Positions 14,010-33,216 of a DNA stretch of 64,000 nucleotides are shown piece by piece; position 1 is the stretch's first letter, and every line of letters starts with the position of its first letter. The DNA lies in NCBI GenBank assembly GCA_012557565.1, contig GCA_012557565.1_3926.1; one strand, given 5' to 3'. The translations under genes were made by a program, and so were the position numbers. This DNA is from a phage. Below the pieces are notes generated by a model. It was not told the DNA's origin, did no database searches, and saw only the letters and a list, made by a program, of their open reading frames with translations.

Positions 14010-14258
14010 ATGGCAACTATCCGCGCAACTGTTAACAATTTTGGTTTTTATGCTCTGGACGTTAAGTTTGACATGGTAAACACTGGAAATGCTTTTGATA
14101 TGGTTGATATGTGTCTGAAAGCAACTGTGAAAGAATACAACCCTGCTGAATGGTTCTGGAAAGAAACGAAAGAGGAGATTTTAGCAAATGGCGTTTTATC
14201 TTACTATTGGGGCGATTCTCTTATCTCTATCTATTACGATAAAGAAGGCCGCAACTAA
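14010..14258 (+). CDS. hypothetical early protein (start trimmed from track 13938)
   Basis: ATG at 14010 behind conserved leader; promoter with hairpin in spacer at about 13938-13970. Confidence 0.55.
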   Translation: MATIRATVNNFGFYALDVKFDMVNTGNAFDMVDMCLKATVKEYNPAEWFWKETKEEILANGVLSYYWGDSLISIYYDKEGRN

Positions 14259-14300
14259 CAAGACGCCGCAACGGGGCAAATAGCCCCAGACACCTTTACA

Positions 14301-14321
14301 GCCCCTTCAATGGGGCTTTTT
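14301..14321 (+). terminator. rho-independent terminator ending the early array
   Basis: GCCCC-TTCAAT-GGGGC hairpin followed by TTTTT. Confidence 0.6.
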
Positions 14322-14699
14322 GACGTCTATACAGAACCCTTCCTAGAATCTTACCAGACCTTTAGAATAATAACTCTATAGCTTACTCTATATCATCTTA
14401 TCAAGTCAACTAACTTTTCCCTTAAATATAAGCCCATAACCCGAAAGGGAAGGGCAATCCCTAAAACGCCCTAAAACGCTCTATACGGGCTTATCATCTC
14501 ATCTTAAGCAATCATATTAACCACTTCTTAAAAGCCCTTTATAGAGCTTTCTAGAGCCTTAAAAGAATCTTATAAGGGGTATAAGCTTTATTATCTCGTT
14601 AGTATCTTGTGAATAGTTAAACAGGGGCTTGATAATAGCTTCAAAGTATGCTATGGAGTCTAAAAAGAGCTTAAAAGTAACGTAAAAGTTAGCCCCCTT

Positions 14700-15200
14700 T
14701 ACATTCTCTTAACAAAATCTTAACAAATGCAACATAGTTATGCTTGTTAGCCCCTTGTTAAATCCTTGTTAGTGGTATGTTAAGAGCTTGTTAGACACTT
14801 TGAAGTCCCTGTATAAGCCCCTGTAAAGGGCTATAAAGAGCTATATAGTCAGTTGGGCTATAGATACTAGTAAGAACCTTAGAAGAGGTCACACAGAGCT
14901 ATACAGGGCTTTTAAGAGGTATGTTTAGAGAATCACTGAGAGGGATAGGGAACGATAAGAGAAGAGATAGTGACCATGTTAATAGATTGTTAAACATGTT
15001 AAGAACTTAATAGACACTTGTTAATAATCTTAACAAAATAACTTTTAAATTTAACATGTTAGGGACTTGTTAGCATCTTGTTAGAACCTTGTAAGAACTG
15101 TTAAGCACTTGTTACACCCTTGTTAGTTCTGTTAAGAAACTGTTAAGAACTTTAGAGACTTGTTAGGGACTTGTTAGAGTTGTAAAGAAATTGTTAATGA
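14700..15200. repeat. cluster of short phased repeats (CTTGTTAG / CTGTTAAG and inverse TTAACAA), about 10-12 bp apart
   Basis: 15 or more copies of TTGTTA(G/A) or TGTTAAG, densest at 15055-15180; no ORF over 60 aa. Confidence 0.7.
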
Positions 15201-15265
15201 TATTTTAAGATTTTGCAAAGGGGATGTTACAGGGCTGTTAAGGGCTACTAAGCAGATATACATCC

Positions 15266-15289
15266 ATGAGGTAGATTCTACCGAATCCA
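15266..15289. repeat. 24-bp element ATGAGGTAGATTCTACCGAATCCA, copy 1
   Basis: Near-identical second copy at 15889-15912; each contains an internal palindrome. Confidence 0.6.
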
Positions 15290-15589
15290 CTAGTAGATAT
15301 TTTTCAGATTCTCCCAAGAACCTAAAAAGTGACCTACCTAGTCTATTTTATAAAAATTTTATAGAACTGAATAACTATCTATACACTATCTTATATAAAA
15401 CAGGAATTAACAGGCTTATAAGATATCTTGTTAGTAACGTGTTAGACCTTGTAGGATAAGCCTTAGAAGGGAATACCTGTTTAGTGTTATATAACAGTCT
15501 ATATAGAGGCTTAGTAATCCCTAGTGATTCTGCTATATAGGGTACTATCTTGGACATAATGGGTTACTGTTAAGTAACACAGATAACCT

Positions 15590-15790
15590 AGAGATTAAGA
15601 TGGGTATAGGGGCTTCTAAGGGGCTAGGAAGAGGTTAGGAAGGTGATTGTATAGGGTTGATTAATGGTAGGCTTAGAAGGCTTTATAGAGGGCTATATAG
15701 AGAGCACTATTTAGGGACTAAGAGGCTATATAGATACTATATAATACTATATAGAGATGATGCTTAGAGAGGGTGTTTAGAAGGGTATAG
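15590..15790. repeat. second short-repeat cluster (GGCTATATAGAG-like and CTTAGAAGG-like motifs)
   Basis: Repeated CTATATAG and TTAGAAGG words; further copies near 14840, 15461, 15500, 15530. Confidence 0.6.
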
Positions 15791-15888
15791 ATATTTTATC
15801 ACATATCATGGTGACCCAAGATGAACGGAGTGAATCCCAAATTTTATAAAAATATAAATTTCGTAAATTTTACTCAATAAAAACCCCT

Positions 15889-15912
15889 ATGAGATAGATT
15901 CTATCGAATCCA
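15889..15912. repeat. 24-bp element ATGAGATAGATTCTATCGAATCCA, copy 2
   Basis: Matches copy 1 at 22 of 24 positions; lies just beyond the 3' end of minus-strand CDS 15933-16604. Confidence 0.6.
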
Positions 15913-15932
15913 TTTTAAGGGGCTGTATAGTC

Positions 15933-16604
15933 TTACATCAATTCACTAAGCATGGCTTGCAATGAAGTTTTAGAAGTCTGGAAGAAGTGTGTGAACCCAT
16001 TATGACGTTCTCTTACCTGAATCATTATCTGGTCACCCTTAATCGGGTGTGAACTAATATGGTATTCATTCATGTTCAGTACAACACCCAAACCATCTAT
16101 AATGTGTCTGAGTATGTCATATTCAACAAATTCTTCTTTACCTGTGACCTTGATACAAACACCTTTGTTGGTTCTCTTAGGGTTTATATCTTCCATAACC
16201 AGCATTTGTTGTCCACCAAGAGAAATCATAGAGAACTCTTTACGGTTCTGCTGCTTAACATACATCTCAAGTTTCTTCAAAGTATCTTCAAAGAACGGAT
16301 AAGATTTCTTGACAAAGATACCTTCAAGTGGCTCTTTACCTGAATCTTCTCGTTCCATCTTAAGTCGATTAACAAGTAATTCTAAAGACCACTTCTCACT
16401 TTCATCAAGATATGTATTGATATCATCTAGACTCAGTACCAGATACTTTCTTTCAAGTTCAAACTTTTTCATCTCTATCAAATCCTTAAAACATTTCTTA
16501 GTAATTGCTTCCCATTCTTCGGAGTTCTTTCTCTTCCTCTTCAGATGGGGAACCATATCTGTTAAGTTCTTCCAACTCTTCTTCAGTAGGTGTCCCATAA
16601 TCAC
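15933..16604 (-). CDS. hypothetical protein
   Basis: 223-aa ORF; last gene of the minus-strand block. Confidence 0.55.
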   Translation of the reverse strand: MIMGHLLKKSWKNLTDMVPHLKRKRKNSEEWEAITKKCFKDLIEMKKFELERKYLVLSLDDINTYLDESEKWSLELLVNRLKMEREDSGKEPLEGIFVKKSYPFFEDTLKKLEMYVKQQNRKEFSMISLGGQQMLVMEDINPKRTNKGVCIKVTGKEEFVEYDILRHIIDGLGVVLNMNEYHISSHPIKGDQIMIQVRERHNGFTHFFQTSKTSLQAMLSELM

Positions 16605-31614: not shown

Positions 31615-33216
31615 ATGGACTTAAATGTTATTAAGCAGAAGCGAGTGGAAGATGTAAGGAAAGTCCTAGCAGGTGAGTTGGGGCTTTCTGAAGAAGTAAA
31701 AGATATTATCAAATCCTTTGGTAAAGACCCCTCTAAATTCCTTCCAACTCAAATTCTGACTTTATTAAGATACACCCCAGACCAAGTAAGACTCATCTTT
31801 AAATTGATGACTGACAAGAACTATGTAGCTCCACAGCCTGGCTCTCAAGAGGTATTCTTGAACACTAATGCTGACTTGGTACTATATGGTGGTGCTGCTG
31901 GTGCTGGTAAGACTGCTGCCCTATTAATGGACTCACTAAGGTTCATTGAAGACCCAAACTATAATGCTGTTTATTTCCGTCGAAATACAACACAGTTACA
32001 AGGTGGTCTATGGCCTGCGGCTAAGAAGTTATTTGGTAAGTTTGGTGGAGTTCCACATGAACAGAAAATGACTATCACTTTCCCTTCTGGAGCAACTATC
32101 AAGTTTACTTATTTGGAACTTGAGAAACACTCAGAAGGTCACCAAGGTATCGAATACTCAGCTATTTATTTCGACGAAGGTACACACTTCTCGGCTTCAC
32201 AGATTTCATATCTTCAGACACGTTTACGTTCTGGTGCTGAAGGTGACTCATATATGAAAATCTCAATGAACCCAGATAGAGACCACTTTATTTATGATTG
32301 GGTAGAACCTTTCCTAGATGATGCTGGATATCCAGACCCAGAGAAGTGCGGCAGGATTCGTTGGTATGTTATGAATGATGGTGTCATGGTTTCTGATTGG
32401 GATAGAGATAAAATTCTTGAAATGTTCCCTCTTGAGATTCCTCAAACATATACCTTTATTTCCGGTACAATCGATGACAACCCTATTCTAGATTTCCTTG
32501 AACCTAAGTATCGTGGTAAATTAGAAAACAACACACCAGTTAACGTTGCACGTTTACGTTTTGGTAACTGGAAAGCTCGTGCTGAAGGTTCAAACTACTG
32601 GCAAAGACAATGGTGTGAAATTGTTGATAGTGTTCCAGCAGACGTATTTGACGTAAGAGCATGGGACTTAGCAGCAACATTACCTTCTGAGGTTAACCCT
32701 AACCCTGACTGGACAGCAGGTGTTAAAATGGGTAAATCTAAAAAAGATGGTTGCTATTATGTGATTAACGTAGTAAGATTTAGAGATAGACCTTCTGGAG
32801 TTGAAACACAAATTAACCAAACTGCTGAAGGTGATGGTAAGCGCACAGGTATTTTTATCCCTCAAGACCCCGGCGCTGCTGGTAAATCCTACGCAACCTC
32901 CCTTATTAGAAAACTTGCTGAGAAAGGTTTCCGAGCAAGAGCTAAACCAACAAATAAAGATAAAGTCACCCGTTTTGCAGGTTTCTCTGCTGCTTCTGAG
33001 GCAGGACTTGTCAAAATTGTTAGAGGCTCTTGGAATGAAGCATATTTCCAAGAACTAGAAGGTTTTTGTGGTGATGGTCGTACTAAGGATGACCAAGTGG
33101 ATGCTACCAGTGATGCTTTCAACAGTCTAAACGAAGTTAAACTATTCAAGCCACCTTCAATGGGTGCTCATACAGATATTATGAAGAGTAATCCATATCA
33201 GGGGCTAAGACGATAA
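31615..33216 (+). CDS. terL: terminase large subunit
   Basis: Walker A LYGGAAGAGKT; size and position ahead of portal; start set to the ATG with SD GAGGTG (track used upstream TTG at 31600). Confidence 0.8.
   Translation: MDLNVIKQKRVEDVRKVLAGELGLSEEVKDIIKSFGKDPSKFLPTQILTLLRYTPDQVRLIFKLMTDKNYVAPQPGSQEVFLNTNADLVLYGGAAGAGKTAALLMDSLRFIEDPNYNAVYFRRNTTQLQGGLWPAAKKLFGKFGGVPHEQKMTITFPSGATIKFTYLELEKHSEGHQGIEYSAIYFDEGTHFSASQISYLQTRLRSGAEGDSYMKISMNPDRDHFIYDWVEPFLDDAGYPDPEKCGRIRWYVMNDGVMVSDWDRDKILEMFPLEIPQTYTFISGTIDDNPILDFLEPKYRGKLENNTPVNVARLRFGNWKARAEGSNYWQRQWCEIVDSVPADVFDVRAWDLAATLPSEVNPNPDWTAGVKMGKSKKDGCYYVINVVRFRDRPSGVETQINQTAEGDGKRTGIFIPQDPGAAGKSYATSLIRKLAEKGFRARAKPTNKDKVTRFAGFSAASEAGLVKIVRGSWNEAYFQELEGFCGDGRTKDDQVDATSDAFNSLNEVKLFKPPSMGAHTDIMKSNPYQGLRR

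What the first reader, a model, noticed from the sequence alone, without database searches (positions are those of the whole stretch)
14322..15932. 1.6-kb non-coding region packed with phased short repeats between convergent gene blocks
In an otherwise gene-dense genome, 14.3-15.9 kb has no credible ORF but contains at least 15 copies of CTTGTTAG / CTGTTAAG at about 10-12 bp spacing (plus the inverse TTAACAA), and separate families of GGCTATATAGAG and CTTAGAAGG words. Phased direct repeats at one helical turn are typical of replication-origin iterons, packaging (pac) recognition regions, or a site wrapped by a DNA-binding protein. The position, directly after an early block with a HAD phosphatase and before the opposite-strand genes, also recalls the injection-stop region of T5-type genomes, which lies at the end of the first-injected segment, although the structural genes here are not T5-like. 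The CTTAGAAGG word recurs in the divergent promoter region near 23.8 kb.
Basis: partly seen in the sequence, partly recalled or inferred. Interest (0 to 1): 0.7.

Follow-up and report, generated by a model that had tools for sequence, protein, structure and literature searches.

The report
Phage genome-end repeat with phased motifs
This gene-free 1.6 kb stretch is where the linear genome of a Felix O1-like phage begins and ends: it holds the roughly 560-bp terminal repeat, which is packed with a short motif every 11 bp that probably serves as a protein landing pad, so the region is a known kind of feature with an undescribed fine structure.

Summary
Window 14259-15932 has no credible gene. It holds 26 TGTTA cores where 2.5 are expected, and 12 of 21 gaps in the central block are exactly 11 bp. 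It also holds 6 CTATATAG where 0.2 are expected.

The window comes from a Mooglevirus-like member of the Ounavirinae (Felix O1 group). Five relatives in three genera carry exact direct terminal repeats (DTRs) of 439-613 bp. Their two junction sequences are the ones found in the window, which places the DTR at 14692-15249 (558 bp). The experimentally mapped 608-bp DTR of phage UAB_Phi87 is the same region.

The region is therefore the genome terminus, or concatemer junction. I found no support for an iteron origin or a T5-type injection-stop site.

Twenty-two of the 26 TGTTA cores lie inside the DTR. Their cores are better conserved than their spacers (0.94 vs 0.77). Relatives differ by 11- or 22-nt indels. 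The two DTR ends mirror each other.

The whole 1.5 kb is built on a CTnnnnAG frame at 10-12 bp spacing, and it is conserved across genera. T7's junction, rebuilt here, has a comparable array: CCTAAAG, at 13-bp steps in the stretch to the right of its repeat.

The most likely role is a multi-site protein platform for end recognition and repeat duplication during packaging. That role is inferred, and the binding protein is unknown.

The parts
14273..14321 (+). Two hairpins ending the rightward gene block. The second (AGCCCC-TTCAAT-GGGGCT plus a T run, 14300-14321) is terminator-like.
   Evidence: Folding energy -11.8 kcal/mol, z = -3.4. A terminator is annotated at the homologous place in phage Michonne.
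14320..14349 (+). Sigma-70-like promoter TTGACG-18-TAGAAT pointing into the gene-free region and the repeat.
   Evidence: Matches 10 of 12 consensus positions. It has the same style as the promoters before each small early gene. It is conserved in Mooglevirus and Felixounavirus. Activity is not shown.
14322..14691 (.). Left flank of the junction, which is the unique DNA just inside the right genome end. It consists of 10-12 bp CTnnnnAG units, CTCTATA words at 14374, 14386 and 14479, and a GTAACGTAAAAGTTA box abutting the cut site.
   Evidence: CT autocorrelation peaks at lags 10-11. Most aligned positions are identical in the relatives of both genera. The junction sequence is shared with relatives that have proven repeats.
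14692..15249 (.). Predicted direct terminal repeat (558 bp). It is present once in this collapsed assembly and would be present at both ends of virion DNA.
   Evidence: Exact repeats of 570, 613, 613, 581 and 439 bp in HP1, Ro111lw, SeKF_63, I14.1 and SPARTY start with GCC(C/A)C(C/T)TT(T/A)ACATT and end just before AAGCAGATATACA. The window carries both junctions. UAB_Phi87's Bal31- and run-off-mapped repeat is the same region.
14707..14728 (-). Two motif units in inverse orientation (TCTTAACAAAA x2) at the left edge of the repeat. They form the left arm of the inverted bracket.
   Evidence: The inverted match between the first 80 nt and the reverse complement of the last 80 nt scores 27-43, against 14 +/- 2.5 for shuffles, in all 8 genomes tested.
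14743..14797 (+). Five direct units at exact 11-bp spacing (CTTGTTAGnnn type).
   Evidence: Cores are invariant across 13 genomes while the 3-4 nt spacers vary.
14798..14974 (.). Centre of the repeat. It has no TGTTA units. It holds GCTATAAAGAG / GCTATATAG / CTTAGAAG type words and a conserved purine-rich stretch.
   Evidence: Mean identity to relatives is 0.80.
14975..15249 (+). Right array, about 25 unit lengths long. It has 17 TGTTA cores, degenerate units, and two inverse copies at 15031 and 15052. It runs up to the right cut site.
   Evidence: An 84-bp part (15138-15221) is the only stretch still alignable with the Erwinia and Hafnia Kolesnikvirus phages.
15250..15262 (+). AAGCAGATATACA box immediately outside the right cut site.
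   Evidence: Identical in every relative examined across three genera. It occurs once in the window.
15263..15830 (.). Right flank of the junction, which is the unique DNA just inside the left genome end. It holds the CTATATAG family (15499, 15533, 15693, 15726, 15747), TTAGAAGG words (15463, 15673, 15777) and an AT-rich palindrome (15345-15365). A further AT-rich stretch follows at 15840-15872, just past this part.
   Evidence: CT lag peaks at 11-12. Conserved in both genera.
15266..15289 (+). A 24-nt element carrying the palindrome GGTAGA-T-TCTACC. It is a copy of 15889-15912 and is missing at this place in most relatives.
   Evidence: (family D19).
15878..15923 (-). Weak terminator-like hairpin (CCCCTT...AGGGG plus a T run) ending the leftward gene block. 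It contains the second copy of the 24-nt element.
   Evidence: z = -1.7. A terminator is annotated at the homologous place in Michonne.
31600..33216 (+). Large terminase subunit, the enzyme expected to cut at the two junctions.
   Evidence: PHROG 979, E = 5e-234. Pfam Terminase_6N and Terminase_6C.

Best explanation
The region is the genome terminus, or concatemer junction, of a Felix O1-like (Ounavirinae, Mooglevirus-type) phage. Positions 14692-15249 are its short direct terminal repeat, and the rest is the conserved DNA on either side of it.

Proposed mechanism, all inferred. In replicating concatemers there is one repeat copy per junction. The packaging enzyme (TerL at 31600-33216, with an unidentified partner) nicks or cuts at TA^GCCCCC (14691/14692) and at ACT^AAGCAG (15249/15250). 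The 558 bp between the cuts is copied, so that each packaged genome carries it at both ends.

The 11-bp phased CYTGTTAR units fill both ends of the repeat, in mirrored orientation at the two edges. I read them as a multi-site platform for a sequence-specific DNA-binding protein that marks the repeat and positions the two cuts. The flanking CTnnnnAG-frame units extend that platform.

What is shown: the homology to mapped repeats, the conserved junctions, the motif statistics, the conservation of cores over spacers, and the inverted bracket. What is inferred: protein binding, a role in packaging, and the nick-and-copy step.

My probabilities are about 0.9 that this is the terminal repeat region, and about 0.45 that the arrays work in end recognition or packaging.
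For: Identity of the phage: best matches are Citrobacter and Shigella Mooglevirus phages at 85-94%.

Exact repeats in HP1 (570 bp, annotated), Ro111lw (613), SeKF_63 (613), I14.1 (581) and SPARTY (439) all share the window's two junction sequences. Thirteen further loci carry both junction boxes 439-633 bp apart.

Many independent records start or end exactly at these points.

Experimental mapping in UAB_Phi87 by Bal31 and run-off sequencing gave 608 bp (PMC4837284). PhageTerm results gave 613 and 581 bp (PMC6454146, PMC8303462).

Core identity is 0.935 against 0.771 for spacers, p = 6e-9. Copy number is held at 19-22 in genomes only 70-80% identical. The Kolesnikvirus repeats, alignable over only 84 bp, have 14.

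Indels are mostly 11 or 22 nt.

In a complete relative, TGTTA clusters occur only at the two genome ends.

An inverted bracket is present in 8 of 8 genomes tested.

T7's junction shows the same kind of array. In T3/T7 the recognition sequences lie within 5% of the termini (PMC3276506).
Against: The window holds a single copy, and no reads are available, so the ends of this particular phage are inferred from relatives.

No small terminase or other candidate binder could be identified.

The two cut sites share no common sequence. The inverted boxes sit at different offsets from the two ends: 3 nt at the left and 26 nt at the right.

There is no hairpin at either junction.

A rough wedge-model calculation gave no intrinsic bending in the arrays.

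Aligning repeats tends to line up cores, which inflates the core-versus-spacer contrast. The constant copy number is the alignment-free support for the same point.

The function of T7's comparable arrays is, to my knowledge, also unknown, so the analogy does not establish a mechanism.
Confidence: 0.62

Rival explanations
1. The arrays bind a protein whose job is not packaging. Candidates are end protection or tethering of the incoming linear DNA, control of DNA ejection (the T5-like idea), or control of transcription reading across the junction from the promoter-like site at 14320.
For: Motif cores are under selection, but nothing ties them to terminase. Both genome ends present the same inverted box to anything approaching from outside. 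A conserved promoter-like site points into the region. [quoted passage not shown]
Against: There is no candidate protein. The arrays are not found at any promoter elsewhere in the genome. The T5 stop signal is internal to a 10-kb repeat, unlike this site, which is at the terminus.
Confidence: 0.17
2. The repeat doubles as a replication origin, and the phased units are iterons for a phage initiator.
For: There are many same-orientation repeats. AT-rich palindromes lie nearby (15345-15365, 15840-15872). The region is strongly conserved without coding.
Against: The units have an 8-bp core on an 11-bp period with more than 20 copies, unlike the 17-22 bp iterons present in a few copies. No DnaA box was found, even allowing 1 mismatch. 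No initiator gene lies next to the region. GC skew tracks the coding strand only.
Confidence: 0.1
3. The arrays are a neutral minisatellite. They would be made and kept uniform by slippage and out-of-register recombination between the two repeat copies, with no sequence-specific function.
For: Indels come in whole units of 11 or 22 nt, and repeat length varies from 558 to 633 bp among close relatives.
Against: Spacers diverge while cores stay fixed. Copy number and layout are kept across three genera, even where the DNA no longer aligns. If cores drifted like spacers, only about a quarter of the 5-mers would survive (0.77^5, my arithmetic).
Confidence: 0.06
4. The conserved flanks encode non-coding RNAs made from the promoter-like site at 14320 or by read-through.
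For: A promoter-like site with no downstream ORF, and high conservation.
Against: No Rfam match, even at E = 1. No stable structures were found in the pieces folded. The 10-12 bp word periodicity is a DNA-level pattern.
Confidence: 0.04

Closest known systems
Direct terminal repeat of Felix O1-group phages (UAB_Phi87, mapped with Bal31 and run-off sequencing; Ro111lw and Pr103Blw by PhageTerm)
   Same: It is homologous DNA with the same junction sequences and the same layout: inverse units, a direct array, a centre, then a long array. It occupies the same position between the two convergent gene blocks.
   Different: The window's copy is 558 bp against 570-633 bp, and the differences come in whole 11-bp units. 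The published papers give length and sequence only. I found no description of the phased motif, the inverted bracket or the conserved flanks.
Phage T7 concatemer junction (160-bp terminal repeat with the short-repeat arrays on either side)
   Same: A short exact repeat is embedded in arrays of one short motif, all in one orientation. In T7 there are 13 CCTAAAG copies, with 13- and 25/26-bp steps in the stretch to the right of the repeat; tested here on NC_001604. Promoters face the junction. The ends are non-permuted.
   Different: The motif and period are unrelated (CYTGTTAR at 11 bp). Here most units lie inside the repeat, not beside it. The phage is a myovirus with a T4-type TerL and no recognisable small subunit. 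The roles of phage RNA polymerase pausing and of the T7 pac elements cannot be carried over.
P1 pac site (hexamer repeats on both sides of the cleavage region). Recalled from the literature, not tested here.
   Same: Several copies of a short motif grouped on two sides of the terminase cutting zone.
   Different: P1 packages by headful and gives permuted ends. Its hexamers carry Dam sites. Here the ends are fixed and there are two cut sites about 560 bp apart.
Plasmid R1 parC centromere and Pho-box-type operators (11-bp direct repeats bound head-to-tail). Recalled from the literature, not tested here.
   Same: The geometry is the same: same-orientation units on an 11-bp period, which suits cooperative binding along one face of the helix.
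   Different: No ParM/ParR-like or PhoB-like gene is linked. The copy number is much higher. The context is a lytic phage genome end. This is a resemblance in how it may be bound, not membership.

Membership tests
Short exact direct terminal repeat (T7-type, non-permuted ends) | The same sequence is present at both ends of virion DNA. | not testable with these tools
   The window is a collapsed single copy and no reads are available. The feature is met in five relatives with exact repeats of 439-613 bp.
Short exact direct terminal repeat (T7-type, non-permuted ends) | Fixed, sequence-defined termini. | tested here: met
   The junction sequences are the same in records from five laboratories and three genera, and both are present in the window at 14691/14692 and 15249/15250. 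Bal31 sensitivity of two end fragments in UAB_Phi87 is reported in PMC4837284.
Short exact direct terminal repeat (T7-type, non-permuted ends) | A terminase of the clade that makes such ends. | tested here: inconclusive
   TerL is present. Its clustering in a 'Felixounalikevirus DTR group' is taken from PMC4837284; no tree was built here.
Iteron-type replication origin | A few 17-22 bp iterons next to an initiator gene, an AT-rich unwinding element and host DnaA boxes. | tested here: not met
   The units have an 8-bp core on an 11-bp period with 22 or more copies. No DnaA box with 1 mismatch or fewer. The neighbouring genes have no known domains. AT-rich palindromes do exist.
Headful pac site | One initiation cut followed by permuted, terminally redundant ends. 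| tested here: not met
   Relatives have exact repeats with fixed ends, as shown by PhageTerm and Bal31 data.
T5-type injection-stop signal | An internal site at the end of the first-transferred segment, inside a long (about 10 kb) terminal repeat. | tested here: not met
   The region is the terminus itself and the repeat is 558 bp. Ejection behaviour cannot be tested with these tools.
T7-like junction arrays of short repeats | One short motif, in a single orientation and with stretches of regular spacing, in and around the terminal repeat. | tested here: met
   The window meets this, and so does T7. This is a shared architecture only; the motifs are unrelated.
Structured RNA gene | A match to a curated RNA family, or a stable conserved fold. 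| tested here: not met
   No Rfam match at E up to 1. No significant folds apart from the terminator.

The most novel reading that the evidence does not exclude
The whole conserved 1.5-kb mosaic of 11-bp CTnnnnAG units, with the CYTGTTAR array at its core, could be a dedicated nucleoprotein scaffold. In this reading it is bound by a still unidentified Ounavirinae protein that takes the place of a classical small terminase. None is recognisable in this family. The inverted boxes at the two edges of the repeat would direct two nicks on opposite strands, setting the length of the repeat that is then copied. That would be a new way of specifying and duplicating short terminal repeats.
Probability: 0.2. 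Interest if true: 0.65.

Novelty: new member of a known kind. Interest (0 to 1): 0.4.

Why it matters
It places the physical ends of this genome, which the assembly hides. That matters for annotation: several public records call tiny genes inside the repeat. It also matters for engineering and for assessing transduction risk in Felix O1-type therapeutic phages.

How short terminal repeats are recognised and duplicated is poorly understood outside T7 and T3. This family has no identified small terminase, yet it has an unusually regular and deeply conserved motif array, fixed cut sites and natural unit-number variants. That gives a tractable system for finding the binding protein and testing the nick-and-copy model.

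Tried and rejected
- Rfam scans of the whole window and of the region at E up to 1 found only tRNAs elsewhere.
- Folding of both junctions and of the palindromic elements as single strands gave nothing beyond the terminator hairpin.
- The promoter and terminator scan showed no real excess: 16 against 9.9 +/- 3.5.
- The DnaA-box search found none.
- GC skew follows the coding strand and is uninformative for an origin.
- Intrinsic curvature from a dinucleotide wedge model gave 3.5-4.2 degrees per turn in the arrays, against a window mean of 5.8. The parameters were recalled from memory, so this is only a rough negative.
- The long-range Fourier peak at 11 bp is weak, because 9- and 20-bp steps break register.
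- The search for a binder gave nothing. The flanking genes have no domains. No small terminase or obvious DNA-binding gene is annotated in the Pharokka-annotated relative SeKF_63. The 68-aa ORF before TerL has only close homologues and no domains.
- An IMG/VR scan with the 15-base junction box gave mostly chance hits. The 23 loci with arrays are ordinary members of the same subfamily.
- Literature searches found the repeat lengths but no account of the motif array.
- The link to the 23.8 kb promoter region was rejected as a single chance word.

Full report
**What is there.** The stretch 14259-15932 lies between a rightward gene ending at 14258 and a leftward gene at 15933-16604. It has no ORF above 60 aa.

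- TGTTA occurs 26 times on the + strand, against 2.5 +/- 1.6 in dinucleotide shuffles.
- CTTGTTA occurs 12 times against 0.25 expected from the rest of the window.
- CTATATAG occurs 6 times against 0.2, and 6 of the 7 copies in the whole 64 kb are here.

The unit is C-T-TGTTA-R followed by three free bases. In the central block, 12 of 21 successive gaps are exactly 11 bp. Random placement never gave more than 6 in 20,000 trials.

The pattern is wider than reported. From 14322 to 15830 the DNA is built on a CTnnnnAG frame at 10-12 bp spacing, with 59 copies against 15 expected. CT and AG autocorrelations peak at lag 11 in the left flank, the centre and the right flank alike. The periodic fraction is 0.46, against 0.287 +/- 0.03 in all other 1.5-kb windows.

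**Where the window comes from.** The region matches 230 phage records, best of all Citrobacter and Shigella Mooglevirus phages at 85-94%, and Felixounavirus phages at about 75-80%. The window also has the 25-tRNA cluster and the T4-type large terminase that I take to be typical of the Felix O1 group.

**What it is.** Citrobacter phage HP1 has an annotated 570-bp repeat at both ends of its record. Aligned to the window, it runs from 14692 to 15249.

I checked four more records by comparing their two ends. Ro111lw and SeKF_63 have exact 613-bp repeats. I14.1 has 581 bp. The Hafnia Kolesnikvirus phage SPARTY has 439 bp.

All five repeats begin ...TA|GCC(C/A)C(C/T)TT(T/A)ACATT and end ...AC(C/T)|AAGCAGATATACA. 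The window has both junctions, each once. Thirteen further relatives carry the two boxes 439-633 bp apart. Many unrelated assemblies start or stop exactly at one of the two points.

The repeat of UAB_Phi87 was mapped at the bench by Bal31 digestion and run-off sequencing (PMC4837284). Its published 608-bp sequence is this same region, offset by 8 and 2 nt from the other boundaries. PhageTerm gave 613 bp for Ro111lw and 581 bp for Pr103Blw.

So the gene-free region is the genome terminus, and 14692-15249 is the predicted 558-bp direct terminal repeat. This assembly has collapsed it to one copy and placed it in the middle of the record. In the physical map, both neighbouring gene blocks are transcribed outward, towards the ends.

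**Anatomy of the repeat.** Twenty-two of the 26 TGTTA cores lie inside it. From left to right the repeat contains:
- the cut site at its left edge;
- two inverse units at 14707-14728;
- five direct units at exact 11-bp spacing, 14743-14797;
- a 177-bp centre with CTATA-type words and no TGTTA;
- a 275-bp array of about 25 unit lengths, running up to the right cut site.

The first 80 nt and the reverse complement of the last 80 nt match significantly in all eight genomes tested, including the distant Kolesnikvirus pair. Scores were 27-43, against 14 +/- 2.5 for shuffles. Each physical end therefore presents a similar box.

**Evidence of selection.** Across 13 genomes, TGTTA/TAACA cores are 0.935 identical to the window, against 0.771 for the positions between them (p = 6e-9). 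Aligning repeats favours cores, so I also rely on an alignment-free fact. Genomes only 70-80% identical all keep 19-22 cores. The Kolesnikvirus repeats, alignable over only 84 bp, still have 14 direct and 7 inverse cores in 439 bp.

Gaps between relatives are mostly 11 or 22 nt. This explains the length range of 558-633 bp and argues against the small ORFs that several records annotate here.

In the complete genome of SeKF_63, TGTTA clusters occur only at the two ends. The flanks outside the repeat are also highly conserved between the two genera, more so than the neighbouring genes.

**How it probably works.** Nothing in this paragraph is shown directly. Concatemers carry one repeat per junction. 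The terminase must cut at both edges, and the repeat must be copied so that each genome gets two. That is the classical model for short terminal repeats.

The phased units, mirrored at the two edges, look like a multi-site platform for a DNA-binding protein that marks the repeat and positions the cuts. The invariant AAGCAGATATACA box and the ACGTAAA...TA box just outside the repeat are the best candidates for cut-site signals.

A conserved sigma-70-like site (14320-14349) reads into the junction. This recalls T7, where promoters face the junction and a paused polymerase takes part in maturation.

I rebuilt the T7 junction from NC_001604. It holds 13 CCTAAAG copies, all in one orientation, with 13-bp steps just right of the 160-bp repeat. 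The architecture is therefore of a known kind, with a different motif, a different period and a different placement.

**What speaks against the mechanism, or is missing.**
- No binder was found. The flanking genes have no domains, no small terminase is annotated in the family, and the 68-aa ORF before TerL is uninformative.
- The two cut sites share no sequence.
- The inverted boxes sit at different distances from the two ends.
- The junctions form no hairpins.
- A rough curvature model shows no intrinsic bend.

**Rivals.**
- An iteron origin is not supported. There are no DnaA boxes, the units are unlike iterons, no initiator gene lies nearby, and the skew follows transcription.
- A T5-type injection stop does not fit a site at the very end of a 558-bp repeat.
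- A neutral minisatellite explains the unit-sized indels, but not the fixed cores.
- An RNA gene has no support.
- A protein array with a job other than packaging cannot be excluded.

The feature is a new member of a known kind. It is the terminal repeat region already established for this phage family. Its regular, deeply conserved motif architecture is one that, as far as my searches reached, nobody has described or explained.

Noticed in passing
window 15266-15289 and 15889-15912: A 24-nt element with the palindrome GGTAGA-T-TCTACC is present twice (92% alike, with paired changes that keep the palindrome). The first copy sits 17 bp beyond the right cut site and is missing from most relatives. 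The second lies in the loop of the leftward terminator.
   Followed up: partly
window 14320-14349: A sigma-70-like site, TTGACG-18-TAGAAT, directly after the terminator of the last rightward gene. It is conserved in two genera, has no ORF downstream, and points into the terminal repeat. It has the same style as the promoters before each small early gene at 7.6-13.9 kb.
   Followed up: partly
window 14410-14420 and 15551-15584: An 11-nt insertion unique to this window, and a 34-nt segment with a GTTAC...GTAAC palindrome that is present in only some relatives. The flanks also change by small blocks.
   Followed up: no
window 31387-31593: A 68-aa acidic ORF lies immediately upstream of the large terminase, with homologues only in Moogle- and Felixounaviruses. 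No small terminase subunit is annotated anywhere in the family record checked.
   Followed up: partly
L010/L011 (PP892526.1, Escherichia phage vB_EcoM_I14.1): The GenBank taxonomy line says Demerecviridae/Tequintavirus, but the sequence, gene order and terminal repeat are those of a Felixounavirus. The label is probably swapped with its sister phage I14.
   Followed up: no
L020 (JN225449.1, UAB_Phi87) 2383-2996: The experimentally reported 608-bp repeat starts 8 nt inside and ends 2 nt outside the boundaries seen in five other records. This is either run-off reading error or a hint about overhangs at the ends.
   Followed up: partly
L014 (OQ845957.1), also ESh19-22 and SeKF_63 records: Several public records annotate three to six tiny 'hypothetical proteins' inside the terminal repeat and its flanks. 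The 11- and 22-nt indels between relatives make these calls very unlikely to be genes.
   Followed up: partly
window 25939-31167: A cluster of 25 tRNA genes lies between the divergent promoter region and the terminase gene.
   Followed up: no
L143/L144 (NC_001604, phage T7 ends): The rebuilt T7 junction has 13 CCTAAAG copies, all in one orientation. Three lie inside the 160-bp repeat, and there is a run at 13-bp steps just to its right. It is useful as a comparison for any short-terminal-repeat phage.
   Followed up: yes
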